Shown: piece by piece, positions 38,125 to 45,574 of the stretch
Position numbering within the stretch: the stretch's first letter is position 1
Layout of the letters: each line of letters opens with the position of its first letter
Source of the DNA: a phage
Length of the DNA stretch: 64,000 nt
Sequence record: PZ445498.1
Strand: one strand, 5' to 3'
The notes under the pieces: generated by a model
What the model saw: the letters and a program-made list of their open reading frames with translations, nothing else
Database searches by the model: none
Told to the model about the DNA's origin: nothing
Translations under genes and position numbers: made by a program

Positions 38125-38201
38125 GGGGGTGTAATCGAATTGGCATAGGTACTGGACTTAAAATTCAGGTTTTGTGGGTTCGAATCCCACCACCCCTACC
38201 A
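38125..38201 (+). tRNA. tRNA, class-I length, anticodon TAA (Leu-type anticodon)
   Basis: Acceptor GGGGGTG/CACCCCT, anticodon arm CTGGA-CTTAAAA-TTCAG, T arm GTGGG-TTCGAAT-CCCAC, A73, CCA; imperfect D stem. Confidence 0.5.
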
Positions 38202-39115: not shown

Positions 39116-39196
39116 GGGGGATTGGCTCAGTGGCGACGGCGCCTGGCTGTAGACCGGGTATATCACGCGGAGGTTCGAGTCCTCCATCCCCCACCA
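39116..39196 (+). tRNA. tRNA-Tyr (anticodon GTA)
   Basis: Acceptor GGGGGAT/ATCCCCC, anticodon arm CCTGG-CTGTAGA-CCGGG, 10 nt variable region, T arm GGAGG-TTCGAGT-CCTCC, CCA. Confidence 0.65.
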
Positions 39197-39288: not shown

Positions 39289-39359
39289 TGGGGTACGCAT
39301 AGGTTGCTAGTGGGCCTCCAAAACCCATGAAAAGGTTTCGAATACCTTTACCCCTGCCA
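39289..39359 (+). tRNA. tRNA-Trp (anticodon CCA), short form
   Basis: Anticodon loop CTCCAAA, T arm AAGGT-TTCGAAT-ACCTT, 3' end TACCCCT-G-CCA; 1-72 is U-U and D arm short. Confidence 0.55.
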
Positions 39360-40053: not shown

Positions 40054-40136
40054 GGGTCGTTAGCCAAGCGGTTTGGCGGGGGACTGTTAATCCATGTCGA
40101 AAGACAACGTAGGTTCGAATCCTACACGGCCCGCCA
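40054..40136 (+). tRNA. tRNA with Asn-type anticodon arm (GTT) but 13 nt variable arm
   Basis: Acceptor GGGTCGT/ACGGCCC, D stem GCCA/TGGC, anticodon arm GGGGA-CTGTTAA-TCCAT, variable hairpin GTCGAAAGAC, T arm GTAGG-TTCGAAT-CCTAC, CCA. Confidence 0.6.
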
Positions 40137-43684: not shown

Positions 43685-43769
43685 GGGGCTATGCTGGAAC
43701 TGGTAGACAATACGGCCTTAGATTCCGTAGCTTAAATGCGTGGGAGTTCGAGTCTCCCTAGCCCCACCA
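43685..43769 (+). tRNA. tRNA-Leu (anticodon TAG)
   Basis: Acceptor GGGGCTA/TAGCCCC, anticodon loop CTTAGAT, long variable arm, T arm GGGAG-TTCGAGT-CTCCC, A73, CCA. Confidence 0.7.
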
Positions 43770-44462: not shown

Positions 44463-44557
44463 GGTAGGTCAATCCAATGGCTGGCGCTGGACTCCGACTT
44501 GAAATCGGTTGATCGTAGTGATACGGTGTAAGGGTTCGATCCCCTTACCTACCTCCA
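44463..44557 (+). tRNA. tRNA-Ser (anticodon TGA)
   Basis: Acceptor GGTAGGT/ACCTACC, anticodon arm CCGA-CTTGAAA-TCGG, long variable arm, T arm AAGGG-TTCGATC-CCCTT, CCA. Confidence 0.7.
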
Positions 44558-45498: not shown

Positions 45499-45574
45499 GC
45501 GGTTAAGCACACGGGTTGTGCCGCAGGCCTTCCAAGCCCCGCTGAGTAGGGTTCGATTCCCTCTAGCCGCTCCA
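45499..45574 (+). tRNA. tRNA-Gly (anticodon TCC)
   Basis: Acceptor GCGGTTA/TAGCCGC, anticodon loop CTTCCAA on a weak stem, T loop TTCGATT, U73, CCA. Confidence 0.6.

What the first reader, a model, noticed from the sequence alone, without database searches (positions are those of the whole stretch)
38125..38201. Class-I-length tRNA carrying a Leu (TAA) anticodon
A 77 nt tRNA-like gene with good acceptor and T arms and A73 has anticodon loop CTTAAAA (anticodon UAA, reads UUA) but only a 5 nt variable loop and a mismatched D stem. Bacterial tRNA-Leu is normally class II with a long variable arm. It may be charged by a non-cognate synthetase or may not be functional.
Basis: seen in the sequence. 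Interest (0 to 1): 0.45.

Follow-up and report, generated by a model that had tools for sequence, protein, structure and literature searches.

The report
Arm-less leucine tRNA in a T5-like phage
This is a real, conserved phage tRNA for the leucine codon UUA that lacks the long extra arm bacterial leucine tRNAs normally have; it belongs to a large family of such arm-less leucine tRNAs in phage tRNA clusters that the papers I could search do not describe.

Summary
Window 38125-38201 (+) is a 77-nt tRNA gene (CCA encoded) with anticodon UAA, A73 and a 5-nt variable loop. ARAGORN calls it tRNA-Leu(taa) and Rfam scores it 57.4 bits. [quoted passage not shown] The gene is 100% identical in about 293 phage records, while its flanks diverge.

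Pattern scans found more than 160 distinct relatives with the same type I spacing in viral contigs and bacterial tRNA arrays:
- RNAalifold predicts the same cloverleaf unaided, with compensatory changes at 19 of 20 pairs.
- A73, U8 and U48 are invariant (135/135), although the pattern did not impose them.
- With T34 excluded, 98 of 100 scaffolds carry the other four Leu anticodons.

It is therefore a functional type I tRNA-Leu. It is most likely charged by host LeuRS through A73 and the D/T core, and it reads UUA, the phage's commonest Leu codon. The pseudogene and mischarging readings are not supported.

Type I tRNA-Leu is known from mitochondria and Streptomyces. One report found that E. coli LeuRS did not charge the Streptomyces one, so charging here still needs a direct test.

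The parts
38125..38201 (+). Type I (short-variable-loop) tRNA-Leu(UAA) gene, 77 nt including the encoded 3' CCA
   Evidence: ARAGORN. Rfam RF00005 57.4 bits. Annotated tRNA-Leu(taa) in related GenBank records.
38125..38131 (+). Acceptor stem 5' strand GGGGGUG. It pairs with 38191-38197 (CACCCCU). G1-U72 is a wobble pair, as in E. coli leuZ.
   Evidence: Sequence. In the family, all 7 acceptor pairs show compensatory changes.
38134..38150 (+). D arm: 3-bp stem AUC/GGU around G13-A14-A15-U16-U17-G18-G19-C20-A20a-U21-A22. This is the tRNA-Leu-type D arm.
   Evidence: Rfam alignment. Same architecture as leuZ, leuW and the window's own type II Leu. Only the two Leu tRNAs among the 26 ARAGORN-called tRNAs of the array carry the GAAYYGGYA motif.
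38152..38168 (+). Anticodon arm CUGGA-CUUAAAA-UUCAG; anticodon UAA at 38159-38161; A36-A37-A38 follow.
   Evidence: Sequence; ARAGORN drawing.
38169..38173 (+). Variable loop GUUUU, 5 nt (type I). U48 at 38173 can form the Levitt pair with A15.
   Evidence: Sequence. U48 is invariant in 135/135 family members although the search pattern did not impose it.
38174..38190 (+). T arm GUGGG-UUCGAAU-CCCAC
   Evidence: Sequence. Compensatory changes at 4 of 5 pairs in the family.
38198..38201 (+). Discriminator A73 followed by the encoded CCA end
   Evidence: Sequence. A73 in 135/135 family members in the standard register, and in all 83 Leu-anticodon scaffolds of the second scan.
43685..43769 (+). 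Companion isoacceptor: canonical type II tRNA-Leu(UAG), 85 nt, identical to T5 tRNA-Leu1. Some T5 relatives have a type I Leu(UAG) in this same slot.
   Evidence: HASG4 and Ob_P carry a 77-nt Leu(tag) directly after tRNA-Ala.

Best explanation
This is a functional phage tRNA-Leu(UAA) with a type I body, that is, a leucine tRNA without the long variable arm.

Proposed mechanism, all steps inferred:
- It is transcribed within the T5-like tRNA array and processed to a 77-nt tRNA. The CCA end is already encoded.
- Host leucyl-tRNA synthetase charges it with leucine. That enzyme ignores the anticodon. In E. coli it reads A73 and the D/T-loop core (U8:A14, A15:U48, G18G19, A20a, G18:U55, G19:C56, U54:A58). 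This tRNA keeps all of these.
- It then reads UUA, and probably UUG by wobble. UUA is the commonest leucine codon in this 40% G+C phage.

What is shown here is the structure, the conservation, the covariation, the restriction of the scaffold to Leu anticodons, and the presence of the identity elements. Transcription, processing, leucylation and decoding are inferred.

The gene is one member of a large family of type I tRNA-Leu covering all six Leu anticodons. The family is typical of tRNA arrays in phages and in array-bearing elements of bacterial genomes.
For: 1. It is a good tRNA: ARAGORN call and Rfam 57.4 bits.

2. It is under purifying selection. It is 100% identical in about 293 phage records and covered at 80% or more in 341. 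The surrounding 2.5 kb is at least 99% identical in only 1 record and 80-95% identical in 492.

3. It belongs to a family with true covariation. I found 163 distinct 74-mers with type I spacing. In an 86-sequence subset (all pairs under 93% identical):
- RNAalifold predicts the cloverleaf with a 3-bp D stem and a 5-nt variable loop without guidance.
- 99.2% of cells are paired, and 19 of 20 pairs show double changes.
- The covariation score is 0.993, against 0.25 for shuffles and 0.11-0.21 for slid registers.

4. It has the signatures of leucine identity:
- A73 135/135, U8 135/135 and U48 135/135, none imposed by the search pattern.
- With position 34 forced to be non-T and positions 35-36 free, 98 of 100 scaffolds carry CAA, CAG, GAG or AAG, all with A73. 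Only 4 of the 48 anticodons that pattern allowed are Leu.
- The D arm is the same as in E. coli leuZ and leuW and is confined to the two Leu tRNAs of this array.

5. The published E. coli identity set needs A73, A15-U48, G18G19, A20a and the D/T tertiary pairs. It does not need the anticodon or the long arm (PMC9976931).

6. The two types are interchangeable. Tequintavirus HASG4 and phage Ob_P have a type I Leu(UAG) in the slot after tRNA-Ala, where T5 and this window have a type II Leu(UAG).

7. In the arrays that hold type I Leu, Ser (236/239) and Tyr (88/93) keep long arms, while Leu is 377 short against 131 long. By my recollection the Ser and Tyr synthetases use the arm; one search shows the E. 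coli Leu enzyme does not need it.

8. There is demand for it. UUA is 23.2% of Leu codons (21.2 per 1000) and CUA 18.6% in the window's ORFs. The two phage Leu tRNAs read exactly these two codons.
Against: - No aminoacylation or expression data for this tRNA were found.
- Fan et al. 2019 (PMC6614811) report that E. coli LeuRS did not charge the S. coelicolor type I tRNA-Leu(CAA). They state that ScoLeuRS is the only prokaryotic LeuRS known to charge both types, and that the E. coli leucine-specific domain favours a large variable loop. That substrate has C48 and was tested in a system where A73 is not an identity element, so the result may not transfer. It still leaves charging by enterobacterial LeuRS unproven.
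- T5 itself lacks the gene, so it is dispensable in at least some hosts.
- The single-sequence MFE fold is not a cloverleaf (z = -1.2). This is common for unmodified tRNA sequences.
- The family was gathered with a pattern that fixes the D loop, part of the anticodon loop, the T loop and the spacing. The standard-register subset was chosen on acceptor pairing. Family members are related by descent, so the counts are not independent events.
Confidence: 0.78

Rival explanations
1. The tRNA is a functional tRNA-Leu as above, but loss of the long arm is itself adaptive. On this reading the arm-less body lets the phage's leucine decoding escape host or competitor factors that recognise type II tRNAs through the variable arm (tRNA nucleases or nucleotidyltransferase toxins). 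Alternatively it spares the phage tRNA from phage-induced damage to host tRNA-Leu. This extends the best explanation rather than excluding it.
For: - T5-family phage tRNAs are already shown to rescue infection from tRNA-targeting defences: tRNA-Tyr against retron-Eco7 PtuAB, and a phage tRNA against PrrC170 (PMC11555353). The PARIS/T5 paper (PMC11464382) appeared in the search list.
- At least one toxin family uses a long variable loop as its anchor: MenT3 on tRNA-Ser (PMC11541572).
- Arm loss is widespread and specific to Leu in phage arrays.
- The phage UAG-type members have A37 where E. coli leuW has G37. This is an anticodon-loop difference of the kind discussed in PMC10264068.
Against: - I found no defence system that targets the tRNA-Leu variable arm in enterobacteria.
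- This window and 97 of the 233 viral loci with a called tRNA-Leu carry type I and type II Leu side by side. That is not what a strong arm-directed threat predicts.
- Simple deletion tolerated by an arm-indifferent LeuRS explains the data without invoking selection for escape.
Confidence: 0.15
2. The tRNA is charged by a synthetase other than LeuRS, so that UUA would be read as another amino acid or ambiguously.
For: - The type I shape is unusual for Leu.
- E. coli LeuRS failed on one natural type I tRNA-Leu (PMC6614811).
- A35 and A36 are shared with tRNA-Phe(GAA).
Against: - The same scaffold carries UAA, UAG, CAA, CAG, GAG and AAG and almost nothing else. No anticodon-reading synthetase would accept that set.
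- There is no G3:U70 (not Ala) and no long arm (not Ser).
- A73 is invariant and the D arm is of the Leu type.
- UUA is the phage's most used Leu codon, so miscoding would hit nearly every protein.
Confidence: 0.04
3. It is a decaying or non-functional tRNA relic (pseudogene).
For: - T5 lacks it.
- The single-sequence MFE fold is not a cloverleaf.
Against: - Rfam scores it at 57.4 bits, higher than most tRNAs of the array.
- It is identical in about 293 genomes despite diverged flanks.
- The family shows near-perfect pairing kept by compensatory changes.
- CCA, U8, A14, G18G19, U33 and the T loop are all intact.
Confidence: 0.02
4. It is a tRNA-shaped RNA used for something other than decoding, for example a decoy for a tRNA-binding host factor, a regulator or a primer.
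For: T5 encodes several tRNA-like stable RNAs of unknown function (annotation).
Against: - The anticodon is restricted to Leu codon boxes across the family.
- The anticodon loop is an intact 7 nt with U33, and the CCA end is encoded.
- The match to codon usage points to decoding.
Confidence: 0.02

Closest known systems
E. coli tRNA-Leu(UAA), leuZ (canonical bacterial type II tRNA-Leu)
   Same: Same anticodon UAA. Both have A73, a G1-U72 wobble, U8, a 3-bp D stem with loop G13-A14-A15-U16-Y17-G18-G19-Y20-A20a-N21-A22, U48, a 7-nt anticodon loop ending AAAA, and an encoded CCA.
   Different: leuZ has a 15-nt variable region with a stem-loop; the phage tRNA has GUUUU. The stem sequences are unrelated: no BLAST hit to any E. 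coli chromosome, and overall identity is uninformative. C32 replaces U32, and the T loop is UUCGAAU rather than UUCAAGU.
Streptomyces coelicolor type I tRNA-Leu(CAA) (Fan et al. 2019, PMC6614811)
   Same: It is a tRNA-Leu of bacterial context with a 5-nt variable loop. It coexists with type II isoacceptors and a single LeuRS. U8:A14 is important.
   Different: It is a chromosomal gene of an actinomycete with anticodon CAA and variable loop ACAGC (C48). In that system A73 is not an identity element, and charging depends on a Streptomyces-specific leucine-specific domain. E. coli LeuRS did not charge it. The phage family keeps A73 and A15:U48 invariant.
Animal mitochondrial tRNA-Leu(UUR)
   Same: Type I shape, UAA-type anticodon reading UUR, and A73 and A14 as identity elements (PMC9976931).
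   Different: It is an organellar tRNA with a weak, A/U-rich core and a dedicated mitochondrial LeuRS. The phage tRNA has a canonical G18G19/T-loop elbow and must use a bacterial LeuRS.
Phage T5 tRNA-Leu1(UAG) and the T5 tRNA array
   Same: Same genomic array and gene order (Ser-Met ... Tyr-Glu-Trp-Phe ...). T5 Leu1 is identical to the window's 43685-43769. The T5 record notes that an anticodon swap turns Leu1 into an amber suppressor.
   Different: T5 Leu1 is type II (85 nt). T5 has no Leu(UAA) gene; an HNH endonuclease gene (hegA) occupies the corresponding interval.

Membership tests
Canonical elongator tRNA (Rfam RF00005) | Full-length match to the tRNA covariance model above the gathering score (29 bits) | tested here: met
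   57.4 bits, model positions 1-71/71, E 1.8e-12.
Canonical elongator tRNA (Rfam RF00005) | Cloverleaf supported by covariation in homologues | tested here: met
   RNAalifold predicts the cloverleaf unaided. 19 of 20 pairs show compensatory changes and 99.2% of cells are paired.
Bacterial type II tRNA-Leu | Long variable arm (more than 10 nt, with a stem-loop) | tested here: not met
   The variable loop is GUUUU, 5 nt. leuZ has 15 nt and leuW 13 nt.
Bacterial type II tRNA-Leu | Leucine anticodon (NAA or NAG) | tested here: met
   UAA at 38159-38161.
E. coli LeuRS identity set (PMC9976931; PMC6614811 introduction) | Discriminator A73 | tested here: met
   A at 38198. Invariant in 135/135 relatives.
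E. coli LeuRS identity set (PMC9976931; PMC6614811 introduction) | U8:A14 and the A15:U48 Levitt pair | tested here: met
   U8, A14, A15 and U48 are all present. U8 and U48 are 135/135 without being imposed by the pattern.
E. coli LeuRS identity set (PMC9976931; PMC6614811 introduction) | G18G19 placed as in tRNA-Leu, with A20a in the D loop | tested here: met
   The D loop GAAUUGGCAUA aligns position for position with leuZ GAAUCGGUAGA and leuW AAAUUGGUAGA.
E. coli LeuRS identity set (PMC9976931; PMC6614811 introduction) | Elbow pairs G18:U55, G19:C56 and U54:A58 | tested here: met
   The T loop UUCGAAU supplies U54, U55, C56 and A58. The partners are present in sequence; the tertiary pairing itself is inferred.
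E. coli LeuRS identity set (PMC9976931; PMC6614811 introduction) | Position of the unpaired residue 47n at the base of the long variable arm | tested here: not met
   There is no long arm, so this element cannot exist. The review reports that the arm's sequence and folding did not correlate with leucylation.
E. coli LeuRS identity set (PMC9976931; PMC6614811 introduction) | Actual leucylation by enterobacterial LeuRS | not testable with these tools
   This needs an aminoacylation assay. The only related published result is negative, and it used a different type I substrate.
Type I tRNA-Leu (mitochondrial; S. coelicolor CAA) | Leu anticodon on a body with a short (about 5 nt) variable loop | tested here: met
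Type I tRNA-Leu (mitochondrial; S. coelicolor CAA) | Coexistence with type II tRNA-Leu served by one LeuRS | tested here: inconclusive
   The window has both a type I Leu(UAA) and a type II Leu(UAG), and the host has only type II. I did not check whether the phage encodes a LeuRS or a helper factor. None is annotated in the parts of related records I inspected.
tRNA-Trp (considered because of a remembered resemblance of the acceptor stem and D loop) | Anticodon CCA and G73 | tested here: not met
   The anticodon is UAA and the discriminator is A73. The phage's own tRNA-Trp(CCA) is a different gene at 39289-39359.

The most novel reading that the evidence does not exclude
Phage tRNA arrays across many host phyla systematically use an arm-less (type I) leucine tRNA family that ordinary bacterial LeuRS enzymes, including that of E. 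coli and Salmonella, charge efficiently. That would overturn the published view that only the Streptomyces enzyme can serve both types. Loss of the arm would also be selected, because it makes phage leucine decoding invisible to host or rival factors that grip type II tRNAs by the variable arm.
Probability: 0.15. Interest if true: 0.75.

Novelty: new member of a known kind. Interest (0 to 1): 0.5.

Why it matters
Leucine tRNAs with a long extra arm are treated as near-universal outside animal mitochondria. The one studied bacterial exception, in Streptomyces, was presented as depending on a special synthetase.

Here a natural arm-less leucine tRNA sits in a well-studied family of coliphages. 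It keeps every E. coli identity element except the arm, and it has hundreds of relatives in phage tRNA arrays.

- It gives a ready-made natural substrate for testing whether enterobacterial LeuRS accepts type I tRNA-Leu, and for defining the minimal leucine identity set in vivo.
- It bears on tRNA annotation: isotype-specific models may flag these genes as mismatches or pseudogenes.
- It bears on how phage tRNA arrays are interpreted (codon supply or defence evasion).
- It may supply compact scaffolds charged independently of the anticodon for suppressor-tRNA engineering.

Tried and rejected
- BLAST of the 77-mer against 5,426 complete E. coli genomes found no chromosomal relative. The only hits were 23-nt T-arm matches to plasmid 'tRNA-OTHER' genes at E = 7. 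This gives no clue to a host origin.
- Global pairwise identity to the other tRNAs of the array and to leuZ/leuW did not discriminate. The top scores were Ser, Arg, the type II Leu and leuZ, all at 56-58 matches.
- Single-sequence MFE folding gives a non-cloverleaf structure with z = -1.2. This is uninformative for tRNA.
- The promoter and terminator scan of 36.8-39.5 kb found fewer sites than shuffles, so it says nothing about transcription.
- My first impression from memory was that the acceptor stem and D loop resemble E. coli tRNA-Trp. I rejected this because the D arm has the extra A20a and 3-bp stem typical of Leu, the discriminator is A rather than G, and the phage has its own tRNA-Trp.
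- Nine literature searches found no description of type I tRNA-Leu in phages. The exact phrase 'type I tRNALeu' occurs only in the Streptomyces paper. The library lacks most subscription journals, including the 1980s T5 tRNA papers, so this absence is weak evidence.
- The bacterial Schlafen paper was checked for type II-specific cleavage. Its enzyme cuts anticodon arms of Lys, Ala and Met tRNAs, not Leu.

Full report
**What is at the coordinates.** Window 38125-38201 (+) reads GGGGGUG UA AUC GAAUUGGCAUA GGU A CUGGA CUUAAAA UUCAG GUUUU GUGGG UUCGAAU CCCAC CACCCCU A CCA. ARAGORN calls it tRNA-Leu(taa), 77 nt. The Rfam tRNA model matches it end to end at 57.4 bits (gathering score 29, E 1.8e-12), ahead of most tRNAs of the array. 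One point is wrong. The D stem is not mismatched once the register is right. It is a 3-bp stem (A10-U25, U11-G24, C12-G23) with G13 opposite A22 and a loop containing A14, A15, G18G19 and an extra A after position 20.

**Context.** The window is a T5-like phage of the genus Epseptimavirus. The best match is vB_Eco_mar003J3, 98.5% identical over 2.5 kb. ARAGORN finds 26 tRNA genes between 33.3 and 46.6 kb. Three more are recognisable by comparison with T5: Trp, Gly(UCC) and Ser(UGA). Related GenBank records already annotate this gene as tRNA-Leu(taa). T5 itself lacks it in both genome records I checked and has the HNH endonuclease gene hegA in the corresponding interval.

**Is it alive?** The 77-mer is 100% identical in about 293 phage records and covered at 80% or more in 341. 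The 2.5-kb neighbourhood is at least 99% identical in one record and 80-95% identical in 492. That contrast indicates purifying selection on the tRNA. More distant T5-like phages carry 77-nt tRNA-Leu genes with the same D loop and variable-loop length but different acceptor and anticodon stems. These are Aeromonas phage AhP_Mru1, Vibrio phage JSF12, Tequintavirus HASG4 and Obesumbacterium phage Ob_P. Their anticodon is either UAA or UAG.

**The family.**
- I searched for the D loop, YUUARA in the anticodon loop and UUCGA in the T loop, at exactly type I spacing.
- The same pattern found 90 stretches in one genome from each of 185,579 bacterial and archaeal species. By my own rough estimate, chance would give about 0.5 matches there. 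Nearly all of those genome hits lie in dense tRNA arrays, with up to 28 tRNAs in 8 kb, and many are on MAG contigs.
- Of 163 distinct 74-mers, 135 fit the standard register. All 135 have A73, U8 and U48, none of which the pattern imposed.
- On 86 sequences less than 93% identical to each other, RNAalifold predicts the cloverleaf with a 3-bp D stem and 5-nt variable loop unaided.
- On the same set, 99.2% of stem cells are paired and 19 of 20 pairs show double compensatory changes. The covariation score is 0.993, against 0.25 for shuffles and 0.11-0.21 for slid registers.
- The acceptor helix was partly selected by my register filter. The other three helices were not.

**Which amino acid?** I repeated the scan with position 34 forced to be anything but T and positions 35-36 free. 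Of 100 distinct well-folded scaffolds, 63 carry CAA, 14 GAG, 13 CAG and 8 AAG, all leucine anticodons. The remaining 2 carry GTG (His). Every Leu-anticodon scaffold in the standard register has A73. Only 4 of the 48 anticodons allowed by that pattern are Leu.
- Together with UAA and UAG, the scaffold therefore carries all six Leu-box anticodon types and essentially nothing else.
- Those anticodons share only A35. This fits a synthetase that does not read the anticodon.
- It rules out mischarging by an anticodon-reading enzyme. AlaRS is excluded because there is no G3:U70. SerRS is excluded because there is no long arm.
- The published E. coli leucine identity set is A73, U8:A14, A15:U48, G18G19, A20a and the D/T tertiary pairs. 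The anticodon and the long arm are explicitly not required (PMC9976931; PMC6614811 introduction).
- The window tRNA has every one of these elements. Its D arm aligns position for position with E. coli leuZ and leuW, including the G1-U72 wobble of leuZ.
- Among the 26 ARAGORN-called tRNAs of the array, only the two Leu genes have this D loop.
- In effect the molecule has the leuZ architecture with the 15-nt variable region replaced by GUUUU.

**Further support.**
- In HASG4 and Ob_P a type I Leu(UAG) sits directly after tRNA-Ala. T5 and this window have a type II Leu(UAG) in that slot, so the two shapes are interchangeable in evolution.
- Across 235 viral loci that hold a type I Leu, ARAGORN finds Ser long-armed in 236 of 239 cases and Tyr in 88 of 93. 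Leu is short in 377 cases and long in 131. By my recollection SerRS and bacterial TyrRS use the arm, so the arm appears to be lost only where the synthetase tolerates its loss.
- In 63 ORFs of the window, UUA is the commonest Leu codon (23.2%) and CUA is 18.6%. By general knowledge both are rare in E. coli. The phage's two Leu tRNAs read exactly these codons.

**What remains uncertain.**
- Nothing here shows expression or charging.
- Fan et al. 2019 found that E. coli LeuRS did not charge the only studied bacterial type I tRNA-Leu, S. coelicolor CAA, and described the Streptomyces enzyme as unique in serving both types.
- That substrate has C48, and A73 is not an identity element in its own system. 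The negative result need not apply to a tRNA that keeps the full E. coli set, but it makes the charging step a real open question.
- Whether arm loss is neutral streamlining or an escape from arm-recognising toxins is also open. There are precedents: MenT3 uses the tRNA-Ser arm as an anchor, and T5-family tRNAs rescue infection from tRNA-targeting defences. I know of no system that targets the tRNA-Leu arm, and type I and type II Leu often coexist in the same array.

**Comparison and novelty.**
- The gene is already annotated as tRNA-Leu in hundreds of records.
- Type I tRNA-Leu is a known kind, from animal mitochondria and from S. coelicolor.
- What I could not find in the searchable literature is any note that phages of enterobacteria, and phage tRNA arrays generally, including Streptomyces phages, carry type I tRNA-Leu as a large conserved family with invariant A73.
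- I therefore file it as a new member of a known kind, of moderate interest. The anomaly is real and functional, and it makes a standing question about LeuRS recognition directly testable. It is not a new mechanism of decoding.

Noticed in passing
window 39289-39359 (+): A tRNA-Trp(CCA) gene, 71 nt with a much reduced D arm, is missed by ARAGORN and falls below Rfam E<=1. It is 68/71 identical to the annotated T5 tRNA-Trp. With it the array covers all 20 amino acids.
   Followed up: partly
window 45499-45574 (+) and about 44463-44557 (+): Two more tRNA genes are missed by ARAGORN. tRNA-Gly(UCC) is 74/76 identical to T5 tRNA-Gly1. A probable tRNA-Ser(UGA) lies next to Ser(GGA). Rfam detects both only through the tRNA-Sec model (28.5 and 37.6 bits).
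   Followed up: partly
window 39116-39196 (+) and 40054-40136 (+): tRNA-Tyr(GUA) is 81 nt, and its variable region does not form a proper stem. tRNA-Asn(GUU) is 83 nt with a variable loop of about 13 nt. Both differ strongly from T5's Tyr (88 nt) and Asn (78 nt). T5-family tRNA-Tyr is known to counter retron-Eco7 PtuAB.
   Followed up: partly
viral loci L007-L126 and L221-L335: ARAGORN 'tRNA-Ile' genes of 80 nt or more among 153 in these phage tRNA arrays. It also 'tRNA-Pyl' and 3 'tRNA-Stop' (suppressor-type anticodons). None were examined.
   Followed up: no
L336 (Streptomyces phage Teutsch, MK460248.1 87195-87483): There are two tRNA-Leu(UAG) genes of 75-76 nt with A73 and G1-U72. The second has a short variable loop (GUGUC) and G15/C48. 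Type I tRNA-Leu therefore also occurs in actinophages, whose host genus has the one studied bacterial type I tRNA-Leu.
   Followed up: partly
E. coli plasmids, e.g. NZ_CP065971.1 116625-116647 (hits H31-H50): The only E. coli matches to the tRNA are 23-nt T-arm matches to genes that PGAP labels 'tRNA-OTHER', on 22 plasmids (the listed ones are 67-175 kb). These may be phage-plasmids carrying tRNAs of undetermined isotype.
   Followed up: no
L219 (T5, NC_005859.1 25000-50000): The T5 RefSeq record carries per-tRNA notes on whether an anticodon swap gives an amber suppressor. It also lists eight 'stable RNA' or 'tRNA-like' features of unknown function inside the tRNA array.
   Followed up: no
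28 of the 163 unique family sequences, e.g. L127, L137, L156: A sub-family of the type I Leu scaffold has its acceptor stem shifted by one nucleotide. This gives an extra base between the acceptor and D stems, for a body about 78 nt long. It is found mainly in Gammaproteobacteria and Burkholderiales tRNA arrays.
   Followed up: no
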